Source of the DNA: Malacoraja senta
Taxonomy: Eukaryota
Assembly: GCA_038087875.1 (NCBI GenBank)
Contig: CM075990.1
Span: 6,264,001 to 6,324,000 of the forward strand
Direction: 5' to 3'
Length of the DNA: 60,000 nucleotides
Shown: one piece after another, positions 5,141-25,304 of the stretch
Position numbering within the stretch: position 1 is the stretch's first letter
Layout: each line of letters starts with the position of its first letter
Translations under genes and position numbers: made by a program
The notes under the pieces: generated by a model
Databases searched by the model: none
Told to the model about the DNA's origin: nothing
The model's input: only the letters and a program-made list of their open reading frames with translations

Positions 5141-6179
5141 ACCCCTGATTTAGTTTAGTTTAATTTGGTGACTTATTCCCCGCAAATGCCTGAAGCCATC
5201 AGCTTGAAGTATCGATCAGGGCATCAGCCACGAAGTCTGCGAAAGTACTCGGGCTGATTTAGGATGACCTGAAACAAGAAGAAAAAGGGAGAGCAAAATG
5301 CCGTTCAGCCCCTCTGGCTTGTTCTGTAATGCTATGACCATTCTCCTGCCCTATCCCCGCAGTCTTCAATTCGATTCAAAACAGACTAATGGATTTCTGG
5401 CTATGAATGTGTTTGAGTTTCTAATGTAGAGAATTCCGCAGGTTCGCTGCCCTTTGAATGCAGAACATAGTTTAAGTTTATTATCGTCTGATTTACCAAG
5501 GTAGTGTGAAAAGCCTTTTTCTTTGTGCATACTATCCAATCCGATCAGATAACCCTATACAGAAATACAGTCATATCAAACCTAAGTACAAAACAGCAAA
5601 GTATAATATACAGAGTGCAGGTATAGTTCTCAGCATTGTAGCACATCAGTTCCATAGACAAAGTCCAATGCCCACAATGGGATTGAGGTGAATCGGCTCA
5701 GAACCCTAGCTTAGAACTTTCTACTCCTTTCTTCCTACTAAATAGTCTGCACTTCATTGTGGGTCTTTGTGTTCCTCAATTCCAGATAACTTGGCCAAGA
5801 AAAAACATCTTTTTTTAAAAATCGTAATATCAACACTGAGCCTATTGTGAATTTTGTACTTTTCATTGAGGTAAATTTTCATTCCCCCAAATTCCAAAGA
5901 ATGCAGCCTCATTTACGCATGTGAAGACCTGGCATCTCAGGAGATCTTCTTACATTCCAGTTGTGGCAAGTATATTATTTTTGTCAGGTAGGAATATCAA
6001 ATTAATACACGCTATGCCAGGTATTGTCCAGTCAGAGTTTTAGGTGATTGTCGTAGAGTCACACAGTGCAGAAATAGTTCCTTTGGCCCAACTTGTCCGT
6101 GCCGACCAGCGAGCCTGTCTGTAAATGCGAAGTCTGCTGCTGTCACACTATGGTAAATATGTTCTGATTTTCTTTCCAG

Positions 6180-6305
6180 AACAAGAGGATATTGACTTTG
6201 ATGTTGAATATGAAACACATTTTGCTGCTGCTCATATTCGCTGGGCAACGCATGGTGTTCCTAATATAGTCAACGCTCACCCACAGAGGTCGGATAAGGA
6301 CAATG
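6180..6305 (+). CDS. GFPT1: GFPT exon 4 equivalent, copy A
   Basis: tttccag|...|gtgagt, 126 nt, [42 protein letters not shown]. Confidence 0.93.
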
Positions 6306-6625
6306 GTGAGTGTGCGTGCCCCCCCACCATTTCAACGGACAACCATTCACTTGCACCTCGGAGGCAGTTACTCTGCCGCTGTGTCGCCTGTACGTGCTAA
6401 AGGATGCACTGAAGCTTGGTCCAGTGAACCAGTCCTTCCCCCACTGGACACTGAAGGACTGGTTCACGCATAACAACCCGCAAACACTCGCAGGGTTTAT
6501 TGTTCAAGGAGGTCACGTGAGTGGCATTGGTGCATTGTACACAGGATGTATTAACTGATGCCACTATCAATGTGTGGGCTTGAGGCATTGAACGTAAAGA
6601 ATGCCAGGCTCTGTCGTATTTCCTG

Positions 6626-6759
6626 AATCTAATTTTTACAACTTTTATATATATAATATATATAATTTTTATACATTTAAAATATATATAATATATATAA
6701 AAATCTAATTTTTATAACTTTTATATATATATATATATGTTGTAAAAATTAGATTTTTA

Positions 6760-6800
<41 letters not shown>

Positions 6801-6822
6801 AAAATTATAAAAATTATAACTT
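6626..6822. repeat. AT-rich (TA)n tract with internal direct and inverted repeats (copy B about 16956-17152)
   Basis: aatctaatttttacaac ... gttgtaaaaattagatt inverted pair among (TA)n runs. Confidence 0.8.
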
Positions 6823-6955
6823 CTAATCAAGGACATGAACATTTACTGATATAAGTCTTAATAATTTGACGCCGACCGTAGACTAAGACCGTACTTAATA
6901 TATTGTGCTTTTCTTGTCTCTTCCTTGCAGTGATGTTTCTGTTTTTAATCTGCAG

Positions 6956-7014
6956 AGTTCATCGTTATTCATAATGGCATCATTACCAACCACAAGAATC
7001 TGCGGAAGTTCCTG
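6956..7014 (+). CDS. GFPT1: GFPT exon 5 equivalent, copy A
   Basis: ctgcag|...|gtaagc, 59 nt, EFIVIHNGIITNHKNLRKFL. Confidence 0.93.
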
Positions 7015-7096
7015 GTAAGCCCTCAATAACCAAGTATTGACTTTCAAAGCATCCTTACCATGTGAAACATAGTTATTCCCTCATCTGGAAGTTATC

Positions 7097-7302
7097 TGGT
7101 GGCACTGTGGTGTAGCGGTAGAGTTGCTGCCTTACAGCTCTTGCAGCGCCGGAGGCCCGGGCGCTGTCTGTACGGAGTTTGCACGTTCTCCCTGTGACCG
7201 CGTGGGTTTTCTCCGAAATCTCCGGTTTCCTCCCACACTCCAAAGACATGCAGGTATGTAGGCTAATTGGCTTGGCTTTTATGTAAATTGCCCCCAGTGT
7301 GT
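7097..7302 (+). mobile_element. V-SINE, partial (copy B about 17428-17633)
   Basis: tRNA-like head and V-domain. Confidence 0.75.
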
Positions 7303-7685
7303 AAAAGTTTTTGTTTGTGGTTTGATGCTAATTGCCACAAGTTTAAATTTTGATGAACACAGTTGTTCTCCAATTCTGCTCGTCCTCTGCCCCCCTTCCA
7401 GTTGCCTTTTATGCTTGTGCCTGACCTTTTAACTGCCTTGATATTCCTCCAGAACCCCTGCTTATAATGTTCTGTCTCCCTTTTTAAAAGCCTCAGCCAA
7501 ACTTGCTGATGCCCTTTCACCTTCCCCGGCGCACTCTCATTTCACTGAACCCTTTCATGTGACAACATTGGAGGCCTTCACAAGAGGCCTTCACTCAGTT
7601 GCTGGTGTTGGAGGCCTTCACTCAGTTGCTGGTGTCATTGGACGTGACTCTTTCGTGCAATTGTTTTTTCTCTCTCTCCCTTCAG

Positions 7686-7820
7686 GAAAGCCAAGGCTAC
7701 GGGTTTGAGTCAGAGACCGATACCGAGTCTATTGCCAAGCTGATCAAATACGTCTACGACAACAGTGAGAATGAGGAGATCAGCTTTGCCACTTTGGTGG
7801 AGAGAGTTATCCAGCAACTG
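7686..7820 (+). CDS. GFPT1: GFPT exon 6 equivalent, copy A
   Basis: cttcag|...|gtgagt, 135 nt, [45 protein letters not shown]. Confidence 0.93.
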
Positions 7821-9150
7821 GTGAGTGAGAATTGCAGAGTTTGTACCCACCTTGAGTTTTTTTGTTAAAATGTGTGCCTGTAATATTTTCATTATTGATG
7901 ACGACATTGAAGGAGGCCATTCAGGCCACAGAGTCTACGGCAGCTCTCGGTGCAATCCCATGAGTCTTATTTATTTCACTGTGACCTGATCTATAATAAT
8001 AATAATAATAGATTTTATTTATATAGCGCTTTTCAGGACTCAAAGTCACTTGCCTATCAGCTCCTTCCAATTCTCTTAAGCTTCCCCCCCCCCCCCCTCG
8101 CCTTCCCCCACATACACGAGAACTAGTCTGAAGAAGGTTCCCAACCCGAAACGCCACCCATCCATTTCCTCCAGAGATGCTGCCTGACCCGCAGAGTTGT
8201 GTGCTATGTCTATCTTTGGTATAAACCAACATCTGCAGTTCCTTTCCACACTAGGGGCAGTTGACAGAGATCTCTTAACTTATTCTCTACCTATCAGTTC
8301 TGCCTAGTTGTCTTGCCCTCCACATGCCCTGCACGTTGTCAGTGGGCAGAGAACAAGGTTCTCCCTGTGATGATGTGGACTTCCCTCAGGGGTTCTGGTT
8401 TCCTCCCATACACAATAGGTGCACGCGTAGGCCATTTGGCCCTTCAAGCCAGCACCGCCATTCAATGTGATCATGGCTGATAATCCCCAATCAGTACCCC
8501 GTTCCTGCCTTCTCCCCATATCCCTTGACTCCGCTATCTTTAAGAGCCCTATCTAACTGCGACACCTACGGCATGTAGGTATGTGAATTGACCACTGGAC
8601 GTTGTATCCAAAGTAACCGCTTGGTGGAATCTGGAGCGAGTTAATGGGAATTAGGGGAATATAAAAATGATGTTGGTGTAAATGGGTGGTTGATGGTTAG
8701 CTGGGACTCTGTTGGCAGAAAGGCCTGTTTCTATGGTGTGCGACTCTGAGATTCTGTCGGGTGAGTAACCTCTGTGATGACAATGACATTGCCACTGGCC
8801 AAAGATCCAAACTAGTTTGGTCTGGGCTTGTTTTAATTACAGTAGAGAGCAGTGTCAGTCATCAGTGCACTGAAGCAGAGATAGACACAAAATGCTGGAG
8901 CAACTCAGTGGGGCAGGCAGCATCTCTGGAGAGAAGGAATGGGTGACCTTTCGGGTCGAGACCCTTCTTCAGACGAGGGGGGAAGCGTAAGAGAATTGGA
9001 AGGAGCAGAGATCAAGTCACTGCACTGATTCAGTGCACGGAAGCATCTGTCTAAGCTTGTGCGAGAGCTGACAACGGGTTCATTCCTCCCTTGGAACGGG
9101 CTGCTTAGCTTAGGTGCTGTTTGCAAACCGCTTTCAAAGCAAAATTCAGT

Positions 9151-9276
9151 CTGAAGAAGGGTCTCGACCCAAAACGCCGCCTATTCCTTCTCTCCATAGA
9201 TGCTGCCTCACCAGCTGAGTTTCTCCAGCATTTTTGTCAACCTTCGATATTTTCAGCATCTGCAGTTCTTTCTTAA
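9151..9276 (+). mobile_element. Penelope-derived short repeat beginning at a degenerate hammerhead core
   Basis: Starts ctgaagaagggtctcgacccaaaacg; flanked by 17-bp direct repeat tcaaagcaaaattcagt (9134-9150, 9277-9293). Confidence 0.75.
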
Positions 9277-9414
9277 TCAAAGCAAAATTCAGTGCCTTTC
9301 AGCTGCCCATGCAATTGAACCACACTAGTTGCTCAATAAAGTTGAGAGCGTGTTTTCAGATTTTAGTTTGGAAATGCATTGCATTCTTCATTGACGACTG
9401 TGCTTGTTTTACAG

Positions 9415-9476
9415 GAAGGTGCCTTTGCCTTGGTGTTCAAGAGTGTCCACTTCCCAGGACAAGCCGTCTGCACCAG
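9415..9476 (+). CDS. GFPT1: GFPT exon 7 equivalent, copy A
   Basis: ttacag|...|gtaaag, 62 nt, [20 protein letters not shown]. Confidence 0.93.
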
Positions 9477-9559
9477 GTAAAGCACCACAGTTCTGGACCT
9501 TAGGGGGAGGTTTTCATGCATTTTATACACAGTTTATCAAATACAGCTAACCTAGCCTC

Positions 9560-10150
9560 AGTACTGGAAAGTCGAAGATAGACACAAAAAGCTGGAGCAA
9601 CTCAGCTGAACAGGCAGCATCTCTGGAGAGAAGGAATGGGTGACGTTTCGGGTCGAGACCCTTCTTCAGACTGGTTAGGGATAAGGGGAAAAGGGAGATA
9701 TAGACGGTGATGTGGAGAGCTAAAGAACAATGACTGAAAGATATGTAAAAAAGTAACGATGATAAAGGAAGCAGGCTATTGTTAGCTGTTTGTTGGGTGA
9801 AAACGAGAAGCTAGTGCGACTTGGGTGGGGGAGGGATGGAGAGAGAGAGAGAATGCCGGAGCGATCTGAAGTTAGAGAAATCAATATTCACGTCTGAAGA
9901 AGGGTCTCAACCTGAAACATCACCCTTTCCTTCTCTCCAGAGATGCTGCCAGTCCTGCTGAGTTACTCCAGTTTTTTATGTCTATCATCAATATTCATAC
10001 CATTGGGCTGTAAGCTGCCCGAGCGAAATTTGAGATGCTCTTCCTCCAATTTGCATTTAGCCTCACTCTTGACAATGGAGAAGACCTAGGACAGAAAGGT
10101 CTGTGTGAGAATGGGAAGGAGAATTAAAGTGTTTAGCAACAGGGAGATCA
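9560..10150 (-). mobile_element. Penelope-like element 3' fragment (GIY-YIG ORF end + 3' repeat), interrupted by a + strand short repeat at 9891-9986
   Basis: Minus strand encodes ..KLEEEHLKFRSGSLQPNGMNIDFSNFR, typical of the end of a PLE ORF; inner insert flanked by atcaatattca (9880-9890, 9987-9997). Confidence 0.75.
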
Positions 10151-10269
10151 AAAAGTCCTTTGTCATTGGAGGAGCTGCATATCAGCAGTGGAATGGAACC
10201 TGTGAGGTGTGTCAGTGAGCTGTGTTCTACAGAACAGTGAGGAAGGCACTGTCCTGGCAGAGACTAGAC

Positions 10270-10806
10270 CAGGGGTGGGGAACCTTTTCATGTTGGAATG
10301 CCGCATTAAGTTAGCTGTAATCTAACAAGGCCGCATCCAAGAAACTTCAATTAGATATACTTCAAAATGTACATTATTTTGTAAAAATCGAACTACTAAG
10401 TACTAACTTCAAGAAAATGAAAAAAAATTGTTAATTCTAAAGTTAACTAACCTTTTAATAACTTTGTTGTGACTGCTTATTGTGGGAGGTTAACGTACAT
10501 TCTAGAGTCACATTAGAACTAAATCATGAGCATAACAGGTGTTAAAATAGCCCTCATGACTTACTAATGTTTTAATTGTGGCCATCAGTCGGGGAGGATT
10601 ATTTCATTGAATCTTCTTTTACACTTTGGTATTTTAAATACATTCATTTTGAGATAAAAATAAAAAGAATAAAAGACGAACAAAAACATATTAATAAAAT
10701 TTAAATAAAAGGATTTGTTCTACAAAATTTGGATTCATTCAAAAGGCCGCACTTAATGGCCTAGAAGGCCGCATGCAGCCTTAAGGCCGCAGGTTCCCCA
10801 CCCCTG
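10270..10806 (+). mobile_element. hAT (Charlie-like) MITE (copy B 20617-21153)
   Basis: TIRs caggggtggggaacct / aggttccccacccctg; 8-bp TSD gactagac/gactagat. Confidence 0.88.
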
Positions 10807-13023
10807 GACTAGATTGTCCTCTCCCGCTTCCACTGTGTCCCAGACTGGTTCGGTCTGCTTCTTCTATCCTCGTCCATGCCCTTGACCCTCTGGATGAAGG
10901 GTCCCAATTCTCTGGTGGTCAGCCTTACTTAACCTTCAGCTTATCCAAAGCTCCCCTTACAACTCCCATTCCTGCCAACTCCCATTCACTGTTCTGCACT
11001 GCCTCCCAGTCTGGAAGCATGCCCTATTTTGTAACAATGTCAGCTTTTGTGTTCAAGTTCCTCCATCCCCTTTCCACACAGTATCACCATCACTTTCTCA
11101 ATCATACCACCCGCCCTCCACCTCTATTTCCCTCTCCACCCTAAATATTGAAAGTGGGGGCTTTGGGGAGAAGGCAGGAGAATGGGGTTGGGAGAGATAG
11201 ATCAGCCACGATTGAATGGCAGGGTAGACTTGATGGGCCGAATGGCCTAAATCTGCTCATATCACTCATAACTCATGGAGGCATTTCAGCTTTGGAGTCG
11301 CCTGACCTTGTGCTCGATTAAAGCTGCTCCACTCAGCCTGCATCTCCCCCCCCCCACCTCCAAAATAGGGCTGTCCTTAAACGTAAAGGTCATGCAGTGA
11401 AAAGAAGAGTTAATTTGGCACAACACAACAAAATCAAACCACCCCATTACCGCAGGTGGCCATGGTACAAGCTTGTTGGAGGTAGTCCGTCTGATGTCAG
11501 TGGGAGTTTGGGTAGGTTTTTTGGTCAGTGGGATCACAGATTCAAGAACCATTCAAGTTCCCAGGTGGGGAAGTCAGAAGAATGGAAGTTTGAGCTGTAC
11601 ATTGCTTCCATCTGCACGGCTGCTTGCAGCTTATAGTCATAGAGTCATATTGCGTGGGAAACAGGCCCTTTGGCCCAACTTGCCCACACCGGCCAACATG
11701 TCCCAGCTATACTAGCCCCACCTGTTCCACTATTTCCTTTAGGAAGGAGATGAGGACACATTTCTTTAGTCAGAGGGTGGTGAATCTGTGGAATTCCTTG
11801 CGACAGAAGGCTGCAGAGGTCAAATCAGTGGATATTTTTAAGGCATAGATAGATTGATTTTTGAATAGTACAGGTGTCAGAGGTTATGGGGAGAATGGGG
11901 TTAGAAGGGAGAGATAGATCAGCCATGATTGAATGGTGGAGTAAACTTGATGGGCCGAATGGCCTAATTCTACTCTTACGACCTGCCTGCATTTGGCCCA
12001 TATCCCTCTAAACCTGTACTATCCATGTACCAATCTTAACTGTTTCTTAAAAGTTGCGATAGTCCCTGCCTCAACTACCTCTTCTGACAGCACGTTCCAC
12101 ACACCCAGCAGCCTTTGTATGAAGACATTACCCCTCAGATTCCTTTAAATCTTTTCCCATTCACCTTAAACCTATGTCCTCTTGTCCTCGATTCCCCCTA
12201 CTCTGGGCAAGAGACTCTGTGTATCTACCCAATCTATTTCTTCCATGATTTTATATACATCTTCTACAAGGATGTATTTAAACAGACTGACAGGAATGTC
12301 AGGAATGTATTCACAAAGGCTGTGGGGTGGCAGCCTTGTGCTTTCAGGCTTCAGGACATGTTACTTACAGTACAAATCTGTAGGAAAGTCGAATGGAAAG
12401 ATTGACTCAATGATGGCCATTCTTGGCAAAATGTATACGTCTGTTGGCAAATCCACAGGAATTTTTTAGCACAGTTGCCACCTACGTATCTGACAAAACC
12501 AGCTGCACTCTGCTTACACTGTGGTCGATGTGTATGTTTATACGGTGTGGCAGTGGGCAAGATAAAACTAATCCCCAAAACCAACTCCACTGAAACCTGC
12601 AAGCTTTGCTCAATGGAGCTTAAGAGTAATATGGCCATTGACAGGAAACAGTTGAGTTATTTTTATGATTTTGACCAGCCTTCAATATAAACCTTTCAGC
12701 AATCTGAAGTTCTCTGTCCTTCCAAGTTGCATAACTTAACTCTCTTTTTAAACACCAAAGGTGATCCAAAGATTTTGCTTTTATGCTGTTAATTCTAGTT
12801 ACTACTTAAGAAATGCACTTTTTTTTTTGAGAAGATGATTGTTCCTGGGACGTGGAGATGAATGGAGAGACAAGTATGGTCTTGTCTTTCAAAAGATGGT
12901 GGTGAATCTCCTTGAACATCTGCAGCCCATGTGGTGTCTGAACTCCCACAGAGCTAGTAGGTTGGGGAGCTGCATGATTTTGACCCGTGATGAGCCAGGA
13001 ATGGTGGATATATGTCCAAGCAA

Positions 13024-13330
13024 GTGGCGGCACGGTGGCACAGCGGTAGAGTCGCTGCCTTACAGCGCCAGAGTCCCGGGTTCGATCCTGACTAAGGGGG
13101 CTGTCTACATGGAGTTTGTACGTTCTCCCCGTAACCTGCCTGGGTTTTCTCCGGGATCTCCGGTTTCCTCCCACACTCCGAAGATGTACAGGTTTGTAGG
13201 TTAATTGGCTTGGTATAATCGTAAATTGTCCCTAGTGTGCGTAGGAAAGTGCTAGTGTGTGGGGATCACTGGTCGGCCCGGTCCCAGAGGGCCGAAGGGC
13301 CTGTTTCCATGCTGCATCTCTATACTAAAC
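13024..13330 (+). mobile_element. Full-length V-SINE (copy B about 23388-23694)
   Basis: ggcggcacggtggcacagcggtagag head with A/B boxes, V-domain, gggccgaagggcctgtttcc tail. Confidence 0.85.
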
Positions 13331-13743
13331 AGTCTAGTGCACGTCAGAGAGAGCATCTTGCCGGTGGTGCTTGCACCTTTCTGGATGGCAGGGATTGCTA
13401 ATTGGAGAGATGTTTCCAAAGAGGACTTGAAGTCACAGGAGTCCATCCCTTTGGAGATATGCTGGTAGTGGATGGTTAAGGCAATGGATGAGATATTGAT
13501 CAAGTTCCCCCTCTGGATTGGGATAGTTTCAAAGTTTTTGATATTTGTTGAAACATCTATGTCTGGTATGGAGTCTTGATGCTCTTGACTTATGCTTTGC
13601 TTGGAAAAGCTCTGCCACTTAAGAGGTAATGGTGGAATTGTCTACTTTGGTAGCCAGACCATTTATGTTGGTCTATGTACTGGTGGCCTTCAGGAAGTTG
13701 ATGCCAAGTTACATAGCAATGGGAGACCACTGAATGGTGGTGT

Positions 13744-14449
13744 TGTGGCGGCTCCCAAGGGTCGTGCCATCATAGTGTCAAACCCCTCGGCACAGGAGTG
13801 GTTCAGTCCGGAGGCGGCCCTTAGCCGGAGGCTTTAAAGGCAGGGGTTTTGGGTGCCATCTTCCTCTCGTTTGGTCTTCCCTAGAACTGGGAGGATATTA
13901 ATAAAAAGTGCTTCTCAAAACACGACTTCGTGCTTAATTCCGAGACCCACGCACTACATTGGTGACCCCCGACGCTCCATTGGCGTCATGATGGAGAGAA
14001 GACAAAGCCCTACCTCCTCACAGGCTGGCCCGGCCCGGCCCTGTCTCTGGACGCGGTCTCCGTAAAACTGCCCAACTTCTGGACCACCCGGCCGCTCATC
14101 TGGTTCCAGCAGGCGGAGGCCCAGTTCAACCTGCGGGGCATCACGGTCGATGCCACCCGCTTCTATTACCTGGTGGGAGCCCTCGACCAGGATGCGGTTG
14201 AAGAGGTAACGGACTTCCTCGCAGACCCCCCGAACGATGATAAATACCTCGGCCTGAAAGAGCTCCTGCTCCAGATTTACGGACTGAGTAGGATGGAGCG
14301 GGCAAGTAGGATCCTGCATATGGGGGGCCTGGGCGACCGACGGCCATCTACGCTCCTAAAGGAGATGGTGGCGTTACTAGACGGGCACACGCCGTGCCTG
14401 TTGTTCGAGTACACGACTTCGTGCTTAATTCCGAGACCCACGCACTACA
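13744..14449 (+). mobile_element. Internally deleted Gypsy LTR retrotransposon (CsRn1-like), present only in copy A
   Basis: TG...CA termini; 4-bp TSD gtgt; 5' LTR 13744-13958 with AATAAA at 13900; PBS tggtgacccccgacg (tRNA-Trp type); gag fragment VKLPNFWTTRPLIWFQQAEAQF; last 39 bp of the LTR repeated at 14411-14449. Confidence 0.9.
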
Positions 14450-15165
14450 GTGTCTTCTTTGGAAATGGTCAGTGTGTGTGATGTAACAGCTTGGGATTGA
14501 TGTTGGTGACCATACTAGAAGACGGCCTGGACTACTACTTTAGATGAGGCACGATGAAAGAGATTACTCGTCCCAATCAGTAAATGGGCAGAGAATTCTT
14601 GATTGTAATCACATACAGTCTTTCCGCTAGCTGGATAGCACGCAAACAAAAAAGATTTTGGCTGCACCTTGGTAATAAACTACACTAAAATATGTGTTCT
14701 GCTTCAACTTTATGATCTGCCTTGATCATAGCCAAAGAAACATGAAATCTGTAGCACTGAGAAAACCCTGTCATTTGGGAATGAATATTTAATGTTCTAG
14801 TTTGAGATAAACTATGTCCTAGTTAAAATGTTCCCAAGCATGCGGAGGAGAACAGAGATCTAAGCATCTTCAACATCTTGGTACGTTAGTTAGAACGCTG
14901 CAACTTCAAGCCCTCCTCCTAACATGGACCTTTTGTATGGAGGATTCTACATAAGTGTAATGCTGAGAAGGTATGATCACCCTGCCACCCTCCCAATGAG
15001 AAACTATCCCTGGAGGAAGGTGTTGCAGTACAAAGAAGGCTTGGGCGTTTGTACAATGTGCCGGTCTACAGTTATCCTTCGAGATCCTTCAACCGCATGT
15101 TACCTGGCCAACCCTTTCATTGCTGTGCAGAAGATGATTGCTCCATGTCCCAGCATTGTAAGAGT

Positions 15166-15303
15166 TTTCTTCTTGCGTATGGCGTGCACAGCCTAAAGTT
15201 GTAGGACAACTTGTTCTATTTGATCTTATTTGATTGTGCACGCCAGGTTGATTGCATTCGTCGAAACAGGGCGGACCACGTGAAGGTTGCAATCTCCCAC
15301 CCC
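15166..15303 (-). mobile_element. Short non-autonomous Ingi/Vingi-like retroelement with 5' HDV-like ribozyme (copy A)
   Basis: 11-bp TSD attgtaagagt (15155-15165, 15304-15314); 5' double-pseudoknot; 3' stem and ATACGCAAGAAGAAA tail. Confidence 0.75.
15250..15303 (-). ncRNA. Predicted minimal HDV-like self-cleaving ribozyme (54 nt)
   Basis: GGGGUGG-GA-GAUUGCA-ACC-UUCACGU-GGU-CCGCCCU-GUUUCGA-CGAA-UGCAAUC: P1, P2 and P3 all pair in HDV order; folded by eye. Confidence 0.72.
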
Positions 15304-15565
15304 ATTGTAAGAGTGAGAACAGCTGAACACACTTCATTGGAAGTGAAGGCCTTTCATAATATGGAAAGGGTACACAGAATTTTTTTCCCACCGTGGTAAA
15401 TACGAGAGGGCATAGCTTTAAAGTGAGAGGGACAAAGTTTAAATGGGATGTGCAGGACAAGTTTTTTTTTACACTGAGAGTCTTGGTTGCCTGGAGCTCG
15501 TGCTGCCAGGAATGATTACGATAATGATGTTTAAAATGTTTTTAGCTCAGCACATGGATATGCAG

Positions 15566-15765
15566 NNNNNNNNNNNNNNNNNNNNNNNNNNNNNNNNNNN
15601 NNNNNNNNNNNNNNNNNNNNNNNNNNNNNNNNNNNNNNNNNNNNNNNNNNNNNNNNNNNNNNNNNNNNNNNNNNNNNNNNNNNNNNNNNNNNNNNNNNNN
15701 NNNNNNNNNNNNNNNNNNNNNNNNNNNNNNNNNNNNNNNNNNNNNNNNNNNNNNNNNNNNNNNNN
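15566..15765. other. Assembly gap (200 N)
   Basis: Run of exactly 200 N. Confidence 0.99.
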
Positions 15766-16509
15766 CCGCAGGTTCGCTGCCCTTTGAATGCAGAACATAG
15801 TTTTAAGTTTATTATCGTCTGATTTACCAAGGTAGTGTGAAAAGCCTTTTTCTTTGTGCATACTATCCAATCCGATCAGATAACCCTATACAGAAATACA
15901 GTCATATCAAACCTAAGTACAAAACAGCAAAGTATAATATACAGAGTGCAGGTATAGTTCTCAGCATTGTAGCACATCAGTTCCATAGACAAAGTCCAAT
16001 GCCCACAATGGGATTGAGGTGAATCGGCTCAGAACCCTAGCTTAGAACTTTCTACTCCTTTCTTCCTACTAAATAGTCTGCACTTCATTGTGGGTCTTTG
16101 TGTTCCTCAATTCCAGATAACTTGGCCAAGAAAAAACATCTTTTTTAAAAAATCGTAATATCAACACTGAGCCTATTGTGAATTTTGTACTTTTCATTGA
16201 GGTAAATTTCATTCCCCCAAATTCCAAAGAATGCAGCCTCATTTACGCATGTGAAGACCTGGCATCTCAGGAGATCTTCTTACATTCCAGTTGTGGCAAG
16301 TATATTATTTTTGTCAGGTAGGAATATCAAATTAATACACGCTATGCCAGGTATTGTCCAGTCAGAGTTTTAGGTGATTGTCGTAGAGTCACACAGTGCA
16401 GAAATAGTTCCTTTGGCCCAACTTGTCCGTGCCGACCAGCGAGCCTGTCTGTAAATGCGAAGTCTGCTGCTGTCACACTATGGTAAATATGTTCTGATTT
16501 TCTTTCCAG

Positions 16510-16635
16510 AACAAGAGGATATTGACTTTGATGTTGAATATGAAACACATTTTGCTGCTGCTCATATTCGCTGGGCAACGCATGGTGTTCCTAATATAGT
16601 CAACGCTCACCCACAGAGGTCGGATAAGGACAATG
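16510..16635 (+). CDS. GFPT1: GFPT exon 4 equivalent, duplicate copy B
   Basis: Same sequence as 6180-6305, in the duplicated block after the N gap. Confidence 0.85.
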
Positions 16636-17090
16636 GTGAGTGTGCGTGCCCCCCCACCATTTCAACGGACAACCATTCACTTGCACCTCGGAGGCAGTTA
16701 CTCTGCCGCTGTGTCGCCTGTACGTGCTAAAGGATGCACTGAAGCTTGGTCCAGTGAACCAGTCCTTCCCCCACTGGACACTGAAGGACTGGTTCACGCA
16801 TAACAACCCGCAAACACTCGCAGGGTTTATTGTTCAAGGAGGTCACGTGAGTGGCATTGGTGCATTGTACACAGGATGTATTAACTGATGCCACTATCAA
16901 TGTGTGGGCTTGAGGCATTGAACGTAAAGAATGCCAGGCTCTGTCGTATTTCCTGAATCTAATTTTTACAACTTTTATATATATAATATATATAATTTTT
17001 ATACATTTAAAATATATATAATATATATATAAAATCTAATTTTTATAACTTTTATATATATATATATATGTTGTAAAAATTAGATTTTTA

Positions 17091-17131
<41 letters not shown>

Positions 17132-17286
17132 AAAATTATAAAAATTATAACTTCTAATCAAGGACATGAACATTTACTGATATAAGTCTTAATAATTTGA
17201 CGCTGACCGTAGACTAAGACCGTACTTAATATATTGTGCTTTTCTTGTCTCTTCCTTGCAGTGATGTTTCTGTTTTTAATCTGCAG

Positions 17287-17345
17287 AGTTCATCGTTATT
17301 CATAATGGCATCATTACCAACCACAAGAATCTGCGGAAGTTCCTG
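17287..17345 (+). CDS. GFPT1: GFPT exon 5 equivalent, duplicate copy B
   Basis: Same sequence as 6956-7014. Confidence 0.85.
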
Positions 17346-18017
17346 GTAAGCCCTCAATAACCAAGTATTGACTTTCAAAGCATCCTTACCATGTGAAACA
17401 TAGTTATTCCCTCATCTGGAAGTTATCTGGTGGCACTGTGGTGTAGCGGTAGAGTTGCTGCCTTACAGCTCTTGCAGCGCCGGAGGCCCGGGCGCTGTCT
17501 GTACGGAGTTTGCACATTCTCCCTGTGACCGCGTGGGTTTTCTCCGAAATCTCCGGTTTCCTCCCACACTCCAAAGACATGCAGGTATGTAGGCTAATTG
17601 GCTTGGCTTTTATGTAAATTGCCCCCAGTGTGTAAAAGTTTTTGTTTGTGGTTTGATGCTAATTGCCACAAGTTTAAATTTTGATGAACACAGTTGTTCT
17701 CCAATTCTGCTCGTCCTCTGCCCCCCTTCCAGTTGCCTTTTATGCTTGTGCCTGACCTTTTAACTGCCTTGATATTCCTCCAGAACCCCTGCTTATAATG
17801 TTCTGTCTCCCTTTTTAAAAAGCCTCAGCCAAACTTGCTGATGCCCTTTCACCTTCCCCCGGCGCACTCTCATTTCACTGAACCCTTTCATGTGACAACA
17901 TGGAGGCCTTCACAAGAGGCCTTCACTCAGTTGCTGGTGTTGGAGGCCTTCACTCAGTTGCTGGTGTCATTGGACGTGACTCTTTCGTGCAATTGTTTTT
18001 TCTCTCTCTCCCTTCAG

Positions 18018-18152
18018 GAAAGCCAAGGCTACGGGTTTGAGTCAGAGACCGATACCGAGTCTATTGCCAAGCTGATCAAATACGTCTACGACAACAGTGA
18101 GAATGAGGAGATCAGCTTTGCCACTTTGGTGGAGAGAGTTATCCAGCAACTG
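18018..18152 (+). CDS. GFPT1: GFPT exon 6 equivalent, duplicate copy B
   Basis: Same sequence as 7686-7820. Confidence 0.85.
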
Positions 18153-19760
18153 GTGAGTGAGAATTGCAGAGTTTGTACCCACCTTGAGTTTTTTTGTTAA
18201 AATGTGTGCCTGTAATATTTTCATTATTGATGACGACATTGAAGGAGGCCATTCAGGCCACAGAGTCTACGGCAGCTCTCGGTGCAATCCCATGAGTCTT
18301 ATTTATTTCACTGTGACCTGATCTATAATAATAATAATAATAGATTTTATTTATATAGCGCTTTTCAGGACTCAAAGTCACTTGCCTATCAGCTCCTTCC
18401 AATTCTCTTAAGCTTCCCCCCCCCCCCCTCGCCTTCCCCCACATACACGAGAACTAGTCTGAAGAAGGTTCCCAACCCGAAACGCCACCCATCCATTTCC
18501 TCCAGAGATGCTGCCTGACCCGCAGAGTTGTGTGCTATGTCTATCTTTGGTATAAACCAACATCTGCAGTTCCTTTCCACACTAGGGGCAGTTGACAGAG
18601 ATCTCTTAACTTATTCTCTACCTATCAGTTCTGCCTAGTTGTCTTGCCCTCCACATGCCCTGCACGTTGTCAGTGGGCAGAGAACAAGGTTCTCCCTGTG
18701 ATGATGTGGACTTCCCTCAGGGGTTCTGGTTTCCTCCCATACACAATAGGTGCACGCGTAGGCCATTTGGCCCTTCAAGCCAGCACCGCCATTCAATGTG
18801 ATCATGGCTGATAATCCCCAATCAGTACCCCGTTCCTGCCTTCTCCCCATATCCCTTGACTCCGCTATCTTTAAGAGCCCTATCTAACTGCGACACCTAC
18901 GGCATGTAGGTATGTGAATTGACCACTGGACGTTGTATCCAAAGTAACCGCTTGGTGGAATCTGGAGCGAGTTAATGGGAATTAGGGGAATATAAAAATG
19001 ATGTTGGTGTAAATGGGTGGTTGATGGTTAGCTGGGACTCTGTTGGCAGAAAGGCCTGTTTCTATGGTGTGCGACTCTGAGATTCTGTCGGGTGAGTAAC
19101 CTCTGTGATGACAATGACATTGCCACTGGCCAAAGATCCAAACTAGTTTGGTCTGGGCTTGTTTTAATTACAGTAGAGAGCAGTGTCAGTCATCAGTGCA
19201 CTGAAGCAGAGATAGACACAAAATGCTGGAGCAACTCAGTGGGGCAGGCAGCATCTCTGGAGAGAAGGAATGGGTGACCTTTCGGGTCGAGACCCTTCTT
19301 CAGACGAGTTCTAGTGTAGGAGGGGGGAAGCGTAAGAGAATTGGAAGGAGCAGAGATCAAGTCATTGCACTGATTCAGTGCACGGAAGCATCTGTCTAAG
19401 CTTGTGCGAGAGCTGACAACGGGTTCATTCCTCCCTTGGAACGGGCTGCTTAGCTTAGGTGCTGTTTGTAAACCGCTTTCAAAGCAAAATTCAGTCTGAA
19501 GAAGGGTCTCGACCCAAAACGCCGCCTATTCCTTCTCTCCATAGATGCTGCCTCACCAGCTGAGTTTCTCCAGCATTTTTGTCAACCTTCGATTTTTTTC
19601 AGCATCTGCAGTTCTTTCTTAATCAAAGCAAAATTCAGTGCCTTTCAGCTGCCCATGCAATTGAACCACACTAGTTGCTCAATAAAGTTGAGAGCGTGTT
19701 TTCAGATTTTAGCTTGGAAATGCATTGCATTCTTCATTGACGACTGTGCTTGTTTTACAG

Positions 19761-19822
19761 GAAGGTGCCTTTGCCTTGGTGTTCAAGAGTGTCCACTTCC
19801 CAGGACAAGCCGTCTGCACCAG
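19761..19822 (+). CDS. GFPT1: GFPT exon 7 equivalent, duplicate copy B
   Basis: Same sequence as 9415-9476. Confidence 0.85.
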
Positions 19823-22800
19823 GTAAAGCACCACAGTTCTGGACCTTAGGGGGAGGTTTTCATGCATTTTATACACAGTTTATCAAATACAGCTAACCTA
19901 GCCTCAGTACTGGAAAGTCGAAGATTGACACAAAAAGCTGGAGCAACTAAGCTGAACAGGCAGCATCTCTGGAGAGAAGGGGTGACGTTTCGTGTCGAGA
20001 CCCTTCTTCAGACTGGTTAGGGATAAGGGAAAAGGGAGATATAGACGGTGATGTGGAGAGATAAAGAACAATGAATGAAAGATATGCAAAAACGTTACGA
20101 TGATAAAGGAAACAGAACATTGTTAGCTGTTTGTTGGGTGAAAACGAGCTGGTGCAACTTGGTGGGGGAGGGATGGAGAGAGAGAGAGAATGCCAGGGCG
20201 ACCTGAAGTTAGAGAAATCAATATTCACGTCTGAAGAAGGGTCTCGACCTGAAACATCACCCTTTCCTTCTCTCCAGAGATGCTGCCAGTCCTGCTGAGT
20301 TACTCCAGCTTTTTATGTCTATCATCAATATTCATACCCGAGTTTGGTCTGGGCTTGTTTTGGGCCCGAGCTAAATTTGAGATGCTCTTCCTCCAGTTTG
20401 CATTTAACCTCACTCTGACAATGGAGAAGACCTAGGACAGAAAGGTCTGTGTGAGAATGGGAAGGAGAATTAAAGTGTTTAGCAACCGGGAGATCAAAAA
20501 GTCCTTTGTCATTGGAGGAGTTTGCATATCAGCAGTGGAATGGAACCTGTGAGGTGTGTCAGTGAGCTGTGTTCTACGGAACAGTGAGGAAGGCACTGTC
20601 CTGGCAGAGACTAGACCGGGGTGGGGAACCTTTTCATGTTGGAATGCCGCATTAAGTTAGCTGTAATCTAACAAGGCCGCATCCAAGAAACTTCAATTAG
20701 ATATACTTCAAAATGTACATTATTTTGTAAAAATCTAACTACTAAGTACTAACTTCAAGAAAATGAAAAATAAATTGTTAATTTTAAAGTTAACTAACCT
20801 TTTAATAACTTTGTTGTGACTGCTTATTGTGGGAGGTTAACGTACATTCTAGAGTCACATTAGAACTAAATCATGAGCATAACAGGTGTTAAAATAGCCC
20901 TCATGACTTACTAATGTTTTAATTGTGGCCATCAGTCGGGGAGGATTATTTCATTGAATCTTCTCTTACACTTTGGTATTTTAAATACATTCATTTTGAG
21001 ATTAAAATAAAAATAATAAAAGACGAACAAAAACATATTAATAAAATAAAAATAAAAGGATTTGTTCTGCAAAATTTGGATTCATTCAAAAGGCTGGACT
21101 TAATGGCCTATAAGGCCGCATGCAGCCTTAAGGCCGCAGGTTCCCCACCACTGGACTAGATTGTCCTCTCCCGCTTCCACTGTGTCCCAGACTGGTTCGG
21201 TCTGCTTCTTCTATCCTCATCCATGCCCTTGAACCTCTGGGATGAAGGGTCCCAATTCTCTGGTGGTCAGCCTTACTTAACCTTCAGCTTATCCAAAGCT
21301 CCCCTTACAACTCCCATTCCTGCCAACTCCCATTCACTGTTCTGCACTGCCTCCCAGTCTGGAAGCATGCCCTATTTTGTAACAATGTCAGCTTTTGTGT
21401 TCAAGTTCCTCCATCCCCTTTCCACACAGTATCACCATCACTTTCTCAATCATACCACCCGCCCTCCACCTCTATTTCCCTCTCCACCCTAAATATTGAA
21501 AGTGGGGCTTTGGGGAGAAGGCAGGAGAATGGGGTTGGGAGAGATAGATCAGCCACGATTGAATGGCAGAGTAGACTTGATGGGCCGAATGGCCTAAATC
21601 TGCTCATATCACTCATAACTCATGGAGGCATTTCAGCTTTGGAGTCGCCTGACCTTGTGCTCGATTAAAGCTGCTCCACTCAGCCTGCATCTCCTCCCCC
21701 CCCCCCCCCCCCCCCACCTCCAAAATAGGGCTGTCCTTAAACGTAAAGGTCATGCAGTGAAAAGAAGGGTTAATTTGGCACAACACAACAAAATCAAACC
21801 ACCCCATTACCGCAGGTGACCATGGTACAAGCTTGTTGGAGGTAGTCCGTCTGATGTCAGTGGGAGTTTGGGTAAGTTTTATGGTCAGTGGGATCACAGA
21901 TTCAAGAACCATTCACGTTCCCAGGTGGGGAAGTCAGAAGAATGGAAGTTTGAGCTGTACAATGCTTCCATCTGCACGGCTGCTTGCAGCTTATAGTCAT
22001 AGAGTCATATTGCGTGGAAACAGGCCCTTTGGCCCAACTTGCCCACACCAGCCAACATGTCCCAGCTATACTAGCCCCACCTGTTCCACTATTTCCTTTA
22101 GGTAGGAGATGAGGACACATTTCTTTAGTCAGAGGGTGGTGAATCTGTGGAATTCCTTGCGACAGAAGGTTGCAGAGGTCAAATCAGTGGATATTTTTAA
22201 GGCATAGATAGATTGATTTTTGAATAGTACAGGTGTCAGAGGTTATGGGGAGAATGGGGTTAGAAGGGAGAGATAGATCAGCCATGATTGAATGGTGGAG
22301 TAAACTTGATGGGCCGAATGGCCTAATTCTACTCCTATCACTTACGACCTTCCTGCGTTTGGCTCATATCCCTCTAAACCTGTACTACCCATGTACCAAT
22401 CTTAACTGTTTCTTAAAAGTTGCGATAGTCCCTGCCTCAACTACCTCTTCTGACAGCACGTTCCACACACCCAGCAGCCTTTGTATGAAGACATTACCCC
22501 ACAGATTCCTTTAAATCTTTTCCCATTCACCTTAAACCTATGTCCTCTTGTCCTCGATTCCCCCTACTCTGGGCAAGAGACTCTGTGTATCTACCCGATC
22601 TATTTCTCCCATGATTTTATATACATCTTCTACAAGGATGTATTTAAACAGACTGACAGGAATGTCAGGAATGTATTCACAAAGGCTGTGGGGTGGCAGC
22701 CTTGTGCTTTCAGGCTTCAGGACATGTTACTTACAGTACAAATCTGTAGGAAAGTCGAATGGAAAGATTGACTCAATGATGGCCATTCTTGGCAAAATGT

Positions 22801-24819
22801 ATACGTCTGTTGGCAAATCCACAGGAATTTTTAGCACAGTTGCCACCTACGTATCTGACAAAACCAGCTGCACTCTGCTTACACTGTGGTCGATGTGTAT
22901 GTTTATACGGTGTGGCAGTGGGCAAGATAAACTAATCCCCAAAACCAACTCCACTGAAACCTGCAAGCTTTGCTCAATGGAGCTTAAGAGTAATATGGCC
23001 ATTGACAGGAAACAGTTGAGTTATTTTTATGATTTTGACCAGCCTTCAATATAAACCTTTCAGCAATCTGAAGTTCTCTGTCCTTCCAAGTTGCATAACT
23101 TAACTCTCTTTTTAAACACCAAAGGTGATCCAAAGATTTTGCTTTTATGCTGTTAATTCTAGTTACTACTTAAGAAATGCACTTTTTTTTTTGAGAAGAT
23201 GATTGTTCCTGGGACGTGGAGATGAATGGAGAGACAAGTATGGTCTTGTCTTTCAAAAGATGGTGGTGAATCTCCTTGAACATCTGCAGCCCATGTGGTG
23301 TCTGAACTCCCACAGAGCTAGTAGGTTGGGGAGCTGCATGATTTTGACCCGTGATGAGCCAGGAATGGTGGATATATGTCCAAGCAAGTGGCGGCACGGT
23401 GGCACAGCGGTAGAGTCGCTGCCTTACAGCGCCAGAGTCCCGGGTTCGATCCTGACTAAGGGGGCTGTCTACACGGAGTTTGTACGTTCTCCCCGTAACC
23501 TGCCTGGGTTTTCTCCGGGATCTCCGGTTTCCTCCCACACTCCGAAGATGTACAGGTTTGTAGGTTAATTGGCTTGGTATAATCGTAAATTGTCCCAAGT
23601 GTGCGTAGGAAAGTGCTAGTGTGTGGGGATCACTGGTCGGCCCGGACCCAGAGGGCCGAAGGGCCTGTTTCCATGCTGCATCTCTATACTAAACAGTCTA
23701 GTGCACGTCAGAGAGAGCATCTTGCCAGTGGTGCTTGCACCTTTCTGGATGGCAGGGATTGCTAATTGGAGAGATGTTTCTAAAGAGGACTTGAAGTCAC
23801 AGGAGTCCATCCCTTTGGAGATATGCTGGTAGTGGATGGTTAAGGCAATGGATGAGATATTGATCAAGTTCCCCCTCTGGATTGGGATAGTTTCAAAGTT
23901 TTTGATATTTGTTGAAACATCTATGTCTGGTATGGAGTCTTGATGCTCTTGACTTATGCTTTGCTTGGAAAAGCTCTGCCACTTAAGAGGTAATGGTGGA
24001 ATTGCCTACTCTGGTAGCCAGACCATTTATGTTGGTCTATTTACTGGTGGCCTTCAGGATGTTGATGCCAAGTTACATAGCAATGGGAGACCACTGAATG
24101 GTGGTGTCTTCTTTGGAAATGGTCAGTGTGTGTGATGTAACAGCTTGGGATTGATGTTGGTGACCATACTAGAAGATGGACTGGACTACTACTTTAGATG
24201 AGGCACGATGAAAGAGATTACTCGTCCCAATCAGTAAATGGGCAGAGAATTCTTGATTGTAATCACGTGCAGTCTTTCCGCTAGCTGGATAGCACCCAAA
24301 CAAAAAAGATTTTGGCTGCACCTTGGTAATAAACTACACTAAAATATGTGTTCTGCTGCAACTTTATGATCTGCCTTGATCATAGCCAAAGAAACATGAA
24401 ATCTGTAGCACTGAGAAAACCCTGTCATTTGGGAATGAATATTTAATGTTCTAGTTTGAGATAAACTATGTCCTAGTTAAAATGTTCCCAAGCATGCGGA
24501 GGAGAACAGAGATCTAAGCATCTTCAACATCTTGGTACGTTAGTTAGAACGCTGCAACTTCAAGCCCTCCTCCTAACATGGACCTTTTGTATGGAGGATT
24601 CTACATAAGTGTAATGCTGAGAAGGTATGATCACCCTGCCACCCTCCCAATGAGAAACTATCCCTGGAGGAAGGTGTTGCAGTACAAAGAAGGCTTGGGC
24701 GTTTGTACAATGTGCCGGTCTACAGTTATCCTTCGAGATCCTTCAACCGCATGTTACCTGGCCAACCCTTTCATTGCTGTGCAGAAGATGATTGCTCCAT
24801 GTCCCAGCATTGTAAGAGT

Positions 24820-24957
24820 TTTCTTCTTGCGTATGGCGTGCACAGCCTAAAGTTGTAGGACAACTTGTTCTATTTGATCTTATTTGATTGTGCACGCCGG
24901 GTTGATTGCATTCGTCGAAACAGGGCGGACCACGTGAAGGTTGCAATCTCCCACCCC
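24820..24957 (-). mobile_element. Same Ingi/Vingi-like short element in copy B (ribozyme 24904-24957)
   Basis: Ribozyme sequence and TSD the same as in copy A. Confidence 0.75.
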
Positions 24958-25304
24958 ATTGTAAGAGTGAGAACAGCTGAACACACTTCATTGGATGTGA
25001 AGGCCTTTCATAATATGGAAAGGGTACACAGAATGTTTTTCCCACCGTGGTAAATACGAGAGGGCATAGCTTTAAAGTGAGAGGGACAAAGTTTAAATGG
25101 GATGTGCAGGACAAGTTTTTTTTACACTGAGAGTCTTGGTTGCCTGGAGCTCGTGCTGCCAGGAATGATTACGATAATGATGTTTAAAATGTTTTTAGCT
25201 CAGCACATGGATATGCAGGGATCGAGAAATATGAATCATGTGCAGGCAGATGAGATTAGTCTATCTTGATATCATGTTTGTCACAGGCATTGTGGGCTGT
25301 AGGG

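What the first reader, a model, noticed from the sequence alone, without database searches (positions are those of the whole stretch)
15166..15303. 138-bp retroelement whose 5' end is a near-P4-less HDV-like ribozyme
Seen: the minus strand reads GGGGUGG GA GAUUGCA ACC UUCACGU GGU CCGCCCU GUUUCGA CGAA UGCAAUC. P1 (7 bp with a G1.U wobble), P2 (7 perfect bp) and P3 (ACC/GGU) pair in the nested double-pseudoknot order of HDV ribozymes. The CGAA junction carrying the catalytic C sits directly before the P2 3' strand, and P4 is reduced to a UUCG loop. G1 (15303) abuts an 11-bp TSD, so the element begins at the predicted cleavage site. The remainder is an 11-bp stem (UGGCGUGCACA/UGUGCACGCCA) with an inner hairpin and an AUACGCAAGAAGAAA tail. 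Known: the ACC-UCAACGU-GGU P3/L3 of the L1Tc/Ingi Pr77 ribozyme is very similar, and Ingi/Vingi LINEs spawn short non-autonomous derivatives. Inference: a SINE-like family with no tRNA head that trims its own 5' end from host transcripts. I cannot tell whether it is already described in cartilaginous fish. It is antisense to GFPT, so it would not cut this pre-mRNA. Also present at 24820-24957.
Basis: partly seen in the sequence, partly recalled or inferred. Interest (0 to 1): 0.78.

Follow-up and report, generated by a model that had tools for sequence, protein, structure and literature searches.

The report
Ribozyme-headed mini-Vingi retroposon, CPEB3 kin
This 138-base insert is one of more than 6,000 copies of a tiny jumping element made from the two ends of a longer, likely Vingi-type retrotransposon; it begins with a minimal RNA fold predicted to cut itself free, and sister elements begin with near-copies of the mammalian CPEB3 ribozyme, which therefore likely came from such an element.

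Summary
The element is a non-autonomous retroposon with at least 6,273 exact-pattern copies in G000. It is the first ~81 and last ~44 bases of a decayed ~3-kb LINE (APE + RT, no RNase H: Vingi architecture) found in the same genome, plus a (GAA)n tail. Its 54-nt head fits the HDV-ribozyme fold without P4. Of 30 copies picked by their 3' end, 28 reach the head; 19 of 26 TSDs end at G1 or overlap it by one base. Twelve other Vingi-like or related heads keep the same fold with compensatory changes. The core and connector resemble phage theta ribozymes. Cleavage is untested, and an internal promoter is not excluded. Corrections: the window's second copy is the same insertion in a duplicated segment, and the TSD/G1 border is ambiguous by one base. 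Ribozyme-headed deletion derivatives are known (NARTc, R2 SIDEs); I found no paper on Vingi ribozymes or P4-less ones in animals, but key papers and Repbase were unavailable. By-product: Vingi heads here and in Repbase nearly match the mammalian CPEB3 ribozyme, suggesting its origin. Other agents in this scan noted the same in other genomes.

The parts
15166..15303 (-). Whole element, 138 bp, bipartite non-autonomous retroposon
15304..15314 (-). Upstream target-site duplication ACTCTTACAAT (12 bp if G1 is counted)
15155..15165 (-). Downstream target-site duplication
15250..15303 (-). 54-nt P4-less HDV-like ribozyme fold; predicted cut just 5' of G1 (15303)
15297..15303 (-). P1 5' strand; pairs with 15268-15274
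15288..15294 (-). P2 5' strand; pairs with 15250-15256
15275..15287 (-). P3 (ACC/GGU) and L3 (UUCACGU); C22 (15282) would pair with G37 (15267) as a single-pair P1.1
15261..15267 (-). 7-nt connector GUUUCGA in place of P4
15257..15260 (-). J4/2 CGAA; C44 (15260) is the predicted catalytic cytosine
15223..15303 (-). Part matching the 5' UTR of the partner LINE (element bases 1 to about 81)
15210..15222 (-). Short filler at the deletion junction, likely a local duplication
   Evidence: inferred
15166..15209 (-). Part matching the 3' end of the partner LINE: last codons, TAG stop (15193-15195), short 3' UTR, (GAA)n tail
15180..15245 (-). 11-bp stem (15235-15245 with 15180-15190) joining a LINE-5'-derived arm to a LINE-3'-derived arm, with inner hairpin 15196-15212
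24820..24957 (-). Same insertion repeated inside a duplicated segment (24104-25218), one base different

Best explanation
The element is a high-copy, non-coding deletion derivative that joins the 5' and 3' ends of a likely Vingi-clade LINE, and its first 54 bases are predicted to fold into a minimal HDV-type ribozyme that would cut the RNA just before G1. Shown: copy number, TSDs, start at G1, both ends shared with an APE+RT LINE, compensated pairing across related LINE heads. Inferred: a source copy is read through by a host transcript (or from an internal promoter); the ribozyme cuts upstream RNA away with C44 as catalytic base; the LINE protein binds the 3' stem and (GAA)n tail and inserts the RNA by target-primed reverse transcription. 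The window copy is antisense in a GFPT intron, so GFPT pre-mRNA would not carry the ribozyme strand; it is most likely a neutral insertion.
For: Copies: 3,182 exact matches to a 3' 21-mer, 1,974 to a head pattern, 6,273 to a 24-nt head pattern with four free places; reversed-pattern controls 0. 5' end: 28 of 30 copies picked by the 3' end reach the head; 26 of 28 have a TSD (7-14 bp), 19 of 26 end at G1 or overlap it by one base; TSD finder null 27 of 870. In four public runs of four coded organisms loose ends pile up at 15303/15304. Partner: LINE copy L167/L173 carries element bases 2-77 at its 5' end, 100-137 at its 3' end, one TSD around both, and APE and RT coding remnants between. Its intact relative P0001 (1,019 aa, 80% identical over the RT piece) has APE + RT and no RNase H hit, the Vingi architecture given in PMC13708176 (passages). 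Structure: LINE copies have U5-A where the short element has U5.G, and CUAA for CGAA. Across 13 heads P1, P3, P1.1 are 94.2% paired with 27 double changes (shuffles 8.0; slid controls 44-58% paired), including a U-A P1.1 pair; P2 77 of 78 cells paired against 43 shuffled, J4/2 always CNAA. In the first 100 listed copies base 44 is C in 93 (6 of the other 7 are CpG-type T) while base 45 is G 64, T 23, A 9, C 4 (hand count). Phage theta hits have the same ACC-UUCACGU-GGU core and a GA-UUUCGA-CNAA connector, and some have 7-nt connectors (PMC10879173 supplement file 6, part 1 of 60); that class cleaves in vitro and is killed by C-to-U (passages). A second P4-less short family with a different P1/P2/P3 has the connector GUUUCCA.
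Against: No cleavage data; only contigs, no raw RNA reads, were available, so no RNA 5' end was seen. Rfam score for this head is far below cut-off. The genome-wide selection test failed to discriminate: C44T 210 against G45A 399, but the neighbouring CpG shows the same 1:2 skew (6 against 12 in 100 rows). The 13 heads were chosen partly by the descriptor, so the pair counts lean toward the model. Only 7 of 23 metagenome loci with upstream sequence had a strict descriptor hit (5 families; 0 of 23 on the reverse strand), so the head is not shown for all Vingi-like elements. The connector is one base shorter than the commonest theta form, P1.1 is one pair, and G37-C44 could close a 2-bp UUCG hairpin that hides the C. 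Seven of 26 TSDs end 1-6 bases upstream of G1, and several copies start at G2. No intact partner ORF was seen among the 150 scored matches. For the window copy the upstream flank can pair with P1 (9-bp hairpin). No named Vingi protein was available for a tree.
Confidence: 0.8

Rival explanations
1. The head is mainly an internal promoter that starts transcription at +1, as Pr77 does in L1Tc/NARTc; the ribozyme fold is a second function or only trims a few bases. This can be true together with the best explanation.
For: L1Tc's first 77 nt are both promoter and ribozyme (PMC3185411, PMC3383444, passages), and Vingi is described as sister to Ingi. The short element keeps about 81 nt of LINE 5' end. 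Start at G1 fits either mechanism.
Against: Primary sequence of P1, P2 and P3 changes freely between families while pairing is kept, which fits an RNA structure better than a DNA promoter. No tRNA; best Pol III A-box match has 2-3 mismatches and no ordered A/B pair in the head (recalled consensus).
Confidence: 0.25
2. The P4-less head was active in the parent LINE lineage but is slow or dead in the short element; full-length copies simply reflect a very short template.
For: Connector is very short; CpG skew test gave no sign of selection on C44; 9 of 28 sampled copies fail the descriptor, as expected from neutral decay.
Against: Without a cut or a promoter the RNA would carry upstream host sequence, yet TSDs abut G1 and loose ends pile there. 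Frequent variants shared by many copies fall at J1/2 base 8, at U5.G/U5-A and at base 45, none breaking the fold. The LINE itself has the same P4-less head, and a second family has one too.
Confidence: 0.12
3. It is an ordinary tRNA-derived SINE or a chance fold in a repeat.
For: Size and tail are SINE-like; Rfam finds nothing at cut-off.
Against: No tRNA; head matches the LINE 5' UTR at about 91%; descriptor null 0 in 6 shuffles; covariation.
Confidence: 0.02

Closest known systems
NARTc / RIME / SIDER (L1Tc-ingi clade, trypanosomatids; PMC3185411, PMC4035085, PMC3383444, passages)
   Same: Short deletion derivative keeping the LINE's 5' and 3' ends; HDV-like ribozyme cutting at +1 (shown in vitro there); single-pair P1.1; related LINE clade.
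   Different: Those have a P4 helix and a 77-nt head and live in protists with polycistronic transcription; this one is 54 nt, lacks P4 and sits in an animal genome; activity here is untested.
R2 SIDEs of Drosophila (PMC3414825, search listing and start of abstract only; also described in PMC4035085 passages)
   Same: Internally deleted non-autonomous element headed by an HDV-like ribozyme.
   Different: R2 is rDNA site-specific with a restriction-like endonuclease; this family is dispersed, makes 7-14 bp TSDs and has an APE-type partner.
Vingi LINEs and their internal-deletion derivatives (Vingi-1_EE; PMC5786205 passages and supplement; PMC13708176 passages)
   Same: Bipartite ORF-less derivative; partner is a single ~1,000-aa APE+RT ORF without RNase H; named Vingi 5' ends printed in the supplement (Vingi-2_Gav, Vingi-4_Crp, Vingi-2_SPur, Vingi-1_BF) have the same fold by eye, two of them the same L3.
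   Different: [quoted passage not shown] This family was not in the passages I saw; Repbase and Dfam could not be searched.
Minimal HDV-like (theta) ribozymes of gut phages (PMC10879173 passages, section 7, supplement file 6 part 1)
   Same: No P4; 6-7 bp P1, 7 bp P2, ACC/GGU P3; rows with identical L3 and a UUUCGA connector before CNAA; length about 54 nt.
   Different: Theta ribozymes are about 99% phage-borne and often follow tRNAs; the paper found none in human, mouse or protist genomes. Here the motif heads a retroposon; the connector is G-UUUCGA rather than GA-UUUCGA.
Mammalian CPEB3 ribozyme (Rfam RF00622; PMC8233481, PMC10919898, PMC5984629 passages)
   Same: HDV fold, G1.U, L3 UUCACGU, GU after P1, single-pair P1.1, CGAA.
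   Different: CPEB3 has P4, different P1/P2/P3 sequence and is single-copy and intronic; this element does not score on RF00622, but its sister Vingi-like families do (up to 64 bits).

Membership tests
HDV-like ribozymes | Nested double pseudoknot P1, P2, P3, P1.1 in HDV order | tested here: met
   descriptor parse and null; covariation
HDV-like ribozymes | Catalytic C opening J4/2 (CNRA) right before the P2 3' strand | tested here: met
   CGAA here, CNAA in 13 of 13 heads (the descriptor requires it for heads it found); C in 93 of 100 listed copies
HDV-like ribozymes | G1 wobble or pair at the cut site coinciding with the RNA 5' end | tested here: met
   element boundary at G1 by TSDs and loose ends; this is the DNA boundary, not a mapped RNA end
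HDV-like ribozymes | Mg-dependent self-cleavage lost in C-to-U mutant | not testable with these tools
   needs a bench assay; the genomic proxy was inconclusive
Rfam HDV/CPEB3/drz families | Score above the curated cut-off | tested here: not met
   14.4 bits against 44 for RF02682; no RF00622 hit. It is not filed under any Rfam family
Minimal (P4-less) HDV-like ribozymes | P4 absent, short loop between P1.1 and the C | tested here: met
   7-nt connector; comparable rows
Theta ribozymes | Fit to the published descriptor; phage, often tRNA-adjacent | tested here: not met
   not phage, no tRNA; the descriptor figure is a picture and was not seen
Bipartite non-autonomous LINE | 5' and 3' ends of one autonomous LINE joined, no ORF, TSD, tail | tested here: met
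Vingi clade (partner LINE) | Single ORF with APE and RT, no RNase H, about 3 kb | tested here: met
   P0001 Pfam; L173 span and tblastn cover. Genomic copies are broken, so the single ORF is inferred from P0001
Vingi clade (partner LINE) | RT phylogeny with named Vingi and Ingi references | not testable with these tools
   no named reference protein came from any call; tree has only unnamed relatives
tRNA-derived SINE | tRNA-like head with Pol III A and B boxes | tested here: not met
   head is LINE 5' UTR

The most novel reading that the evidence does not exclude
HDV-type ribozymes are the ancestral 5' end of Vingi retrotransposons; this family is a P4-less, theta-like ribozyme amplified to thousands of copies in an animal genome; and the mammalian CPEB3 ribozyme, reported as not found outside mammals, is a domesticated Vingi 5' end.
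Probability: 0.7. Interest if true: 0.78.

Novelty: new variant of a known kind. Interest (0 to 1): 0.6.

Why it matters
It would add Vingi to the LINE clades with a 5' ribozyme, move P4-less HDV ribozymes from gut phages into an animal genome at thousands of copies (a natural mutation library, and many potential intron cut sites where copies are sense), and offer a testable origin for the CPEB3 ribozyme, for which PMC8233481 notes a lack of outgroups. Vingi 5' UTRs are used in gene-insertion platforms (PMC13708176), so a self-cutting head there would be of practical use. The architecture itself (ribozyme-headed deletion derivative) is already known.

Tried and rejected
Second window copy as independent evidence: rejected. 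A head and a tail 3.9 kb apart on C1 (L081, L059) as a full LINE: they are two short copies; L091-L093 were fetched for this and not used. Exclusion pattern at the 5' end to find the LINE: 7 hits, all truncated or rearranged short copies; the 3' exclusion pattern worked. CpG skew as proof of selection on C44: inconclusive. Rfam: nothing at cut-off for this head. Public runs: contigs only, so no RNA start, strand or level; 'RNA' labels are guesses. Contigs of two other coded organisms run from the flanks 20-26 bases into the element, below the 31-base bridging rule, so a shared insertion is only suggested. Kojima 2011, Ruminski 2011, Webb 2009 and one review id (recalled) are not held. Sequence and in-genome look-ups of earlier scan notes found nothing.

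Full report
Observation. A pairing descriptor that I wrote (P1 7 bp, P2 at least 6 bp, P3 3 bp, L3 7-8 nt, single P1.1 pair, CNRA before P2') finds only the two window copies and nothing in 6 shuffles of the window. P1 has two wobbles, and there is no P4 stem: seven bases (GUUUCGA) join P1 to the CGAA. The TSD is 11 bp, or 12 if G1 is counted. The copy at 24820-24957 shares its flanks and lies in a 1,116-bp stretch 99.1% identical to 14450-15565, beside an N gap and an 8.3-kb duplication that also repeats GFPT exons; it is the same insertion, likely an assembly duplicate. GFPT-type exons are on +, so the element is intronic and antisense. Rfam has no hit at cut-off; on a 151-base stretch its best, weak match (14.4 bits, cut-off 44) covers exactly 15250-15303.

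Family. G000 (1.94 Gb) has 3,182 exact matches to a 3' 21-mer, 1,974 to a head pattern and 6,273 to a 24-nt head pattern with four free places; reversed controls give 0. These are lower bounds for diverged copies but include assembly duplicates and a few LINE heads. The 40 best DNA matches are 93-100% identical. In the first 30 loci picked by the 3' end alone (one duplicate pair among them), 28 reach the head, 26 of 28 have a 7-14 bp TSD, and 19 of 26 TSDs end at G1 (10) or overlap it by one base (9); 7 end 1-6 bases upstream; the finder's null rate is 27 of 870. 19 of 28 still pass the descriptor. Public runs under eight organism codes hold 93-100% of the sampled words, and in four laid runs loose ends pile up at 15303/15304 and at the tail. 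No tRNA is present.

Partner LINE. A 3'-anchored exclusion pattern found copies whose last ~40 bases match the element but continue upstream into a coding region. Searching with its RT piece gave about 25 close copies (77-88% identical) and at least two more distant families. Copy L167/L173 has element bases 2-77 at its 5' end, 100-137 at its 3' end, one TSD around the whole, and APE and RT remnants between. The junction lies at about base 81, followed by a 13-base filler, then the last codons, stop, short UTR and (GAA)n of the LINE; L055/L056 are an intermediate deletion form. The intact database relative P0001 is 1,019 aa with APE and RT and no RNase H hit, which is the Vingi architecture stated in PMC13708176 (passages). 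No named Vingi protein was available, so the clade rests on architecture and on the similarity of named Vingi 5' ends printed in the supplement of PMC5786205. All partner copies seen are broken; an intact driver was not found among 150 scored matches, which is unexplained given how alike the best short copies are.

Structure evidence. The LINE head differs from the short element by U5-A for U5.G and CUAA for CGAA. Two other Vingi-like LINE families in G000 (B: L177, L184, L192; C: L185, L186, L189, L190), first noticed by position at the element start, begin with the same fold in different sequence and with P4. Among 77 metagenome loci, 23 had enough upstream sequence; 7 had a strict hit (5 families), 0 on the reverse strand; a relaxed descriptor on 31 chosen regions added L228 and L264. 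Several loci with upstream sequence (L193, L194, L201, L204) had none. On 13 heads, P1, P3 and P1.1 are 94.2% paired with 27 double changes (shuffled mean 8.0, 0 of 500 as high; slid controls 44-58%), with one U-A P1.1 pair; P2 is paired in 77 of 78 cells against 43 shuffled, and J4/2 is CNAA in all. These heads were partly chosen by the descriptor, so position at the element start and the independent Rfam hits carry more weight than the percentages. An endonuclease tree of 23 rows spreads ribozyme-bearing families over several supported clades (unrooted, no named references). Within the family, variants shared by many copies fall at base 8, base 32 and base 45; in 100 listed copies base 44 is C in 93 while base 45 takes all four letters (hand count). 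Against: the genome-wide count of C44T (210) and G45A (399) looks like selection, but the next CpG has the same skew (6 against 12 in 100 rows), so it is inconclusive. For this copy the upstream flank can pair with the P1 5' strand.

P4-less form. PMC10879173 (passages, section 7) defines minimal HDV-like ribozymes as lacking P4, shows in vitro cleavage lost with C-to-U, and reports nearly 99% of them in phages, with none in human, mouse or protist genomes. Its supplement file 6 (part 1 of 60) has rows with the same ACC-UUCACGU-GGU core, rows with GA-UUUCGA-CNAA, and rows with 7-nt connectors; these rows are search hits, not all assayed. A second short family in G000 (D: L290, L292, L296-L312, L186:4691-4754) has different helices, the connector GUUUCCA, a Vingi-like tail and TSDs.

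Mechanism. Most likely (0.8): read-through or internally promoted RNA is cut before G1 by the ribozyme, and the Vingi-type protein copies it from the (GAA)n tail by target-primed reverse transcription. Family, ends, partner and conserved fold are shown; cutting, the RNA source and the driver are inferred. An internal promoter as in L1Tc (PMC3185411, PMC3383444, passages) may coexist.

Comparison with what is known. Ribozyme-headed deletion derivatives are known (NARTc, SIDER, R2 SIDEs), as are Vingi deletion derivatives (PMC5786205), and a review says that some LINEs and SINEs of metazoans use hammerhead or HDV-like ribozymes (PMC6765202, passages). PMC5786205 lists six ribozyme-bearing clades without Vingi. 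Full-text searches found no paper linking Vingi to a ribozyme: 'HDV-like + ribozyme + Vingi' gave one review without that link in the 12 of 24 places shown; 'CPEB3 + ribozyme + vingi' gave one paper where the word is Tvingi; further searches showed none in their listings. Kojima 2011, Ruminski 2011, Webb 2009, Riccitelli 2014, patents, Repbase and Dfam were not seen and could hold prior notice; I recall that Webb 2009 reported such ribozymes in lamprey, lancelet and sea urchin, which may be Vingi heads.

CPEB3 link (outside the finding). The Rfam CPEB3 model matches 51 places in G000, 39 over cut-off, of 59 scored. Family F (up to 64 bits) is followed directly by a Vingi-like endonuclease frame; metagenome locus L220 scores 55.6 bits upstream of a Vingi-like ORF, and F and L220 fall in one starred clade. 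Family G copies have the CPEB3 P4 stem strands. By eye, Vingi-2_Gav (PMC5786205 supplement) matches the human ribozyme as given by primers in PMC5984629 at 37 of 40 bases from P1 to the base of P4 and at 14 of 14 bases through J4/2 and P2', with a compensatory change at the end of P2. [quoted passage not shown] Convergence under strong constraint is the rival, but identity in freely covarying helices argues for descent. Eight earlier AI reports of this scan reach the same reading in other genomes; they are not independent evidence, and my reading was formed before I saw them.

Papers seen: passages of PMC13708176, PMC4035085, PMC6765202, PMC5753468, PMC10919898, PMC3391268, PMC5984629, PMC3383444; passages plus one section of PMC3185411, PMC8233481; passages, one section and parts of supplements of PMC10879173; passages and supplement passages of PMC5786205; listing only for PMC3414825.

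Verdict. Real; new variant of a known kind; interest 0.6.

Noticed in passing
G000 loci L270-L273, L275-L277, L279, L280, L286, L288, L289: Family F: Vingi-like LINE whose 5' end scores up to 64 bits on the Rfam CPEB3 ribozyme model, with an endonuclease frame directly behind.
   Followed up: partly
L281, L283, L285, L291, L294 (about 1500-1610 from the match start): Family G: old repeat of about 90 bases with a CPEB3-like head including the same P4 stem strands; no ORF or tail found. Families H (L274, L278, L282) and I (L284, L287, L293, L295) are similar short CPEB3-like repeats.
   Followed up: partly
L290, L292, L296-L312; L186:4691-4754 (-): Family D: a second P4-less ribozyme-headed short element of about 170 bp with Vingi-like tail and TSDs; copies start with four G, one short of a 7-bp P1.
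   Followed up: partly
L220:3617-3690, L221, L222 (metagenome contigs): Vingi-like LINE whose head scores 55.6 bits on RF00622 (cut-off 35).
   Followed up: yes
PMC5786205 supplement; SINE2-1_AMi 61-127: An alligator tRNA-SINE carries a CPEB3-like Vingi head behind its tRNA part, with changes in L3/P3 that would break the fold, as expected if cutting removed the promoter (by eye).
   Followed up: no
L177, L184, L192; L185, L186, L189, L190: Vingi-like LINE families B and C have P4-bearing HDV folds, long open frames (up to 886 and about 700 aa) and different 3' tails.
   Followed up: partly
L145, L147, L155, L156, L158, L163, L165: Many partner-LINE copies have an inverted 5' part, as in twin priming.
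   Followed up: no
window 15235-15245 with 15180-15190; L173, L174: The 11-bp stem pairs a 5'-UTR arm with a 3'-end arm; the LINE has the same complementarity with one mismatch, so full-length RNA might pair end to end. Part of it is the palindrome GTGCAC.
   Followed up: partly
window 5436-13743 vs 15766-24107; 14450-15565 vs 24104-25218; N gaps 15566-15765, 45988-46187: Near-identical duplications (98.2% and 99.1%) around an assembly gap repeat GFPT exons; probably uncollapsed haplotypes.
   Followed up: partly
window 13966-14478 (+): A 171-codon frame that looks like a gypsy/BEL-type gag N-terminus (resemblance recalled), present in one duplicate only.
   Followed up: no
L186:5045-5122 (-): Decayed short element with CPEB3-like P2/P3 and a GAA tail.
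   Followed up: partly
element CpG sites 41-42 and 44-45: G-to-A exceeds C-to-T about 2:1 on the element's sense strand at both CpGs; context-dependent decay, cDNA deamination or selection are all possible.
   Followed up: partly
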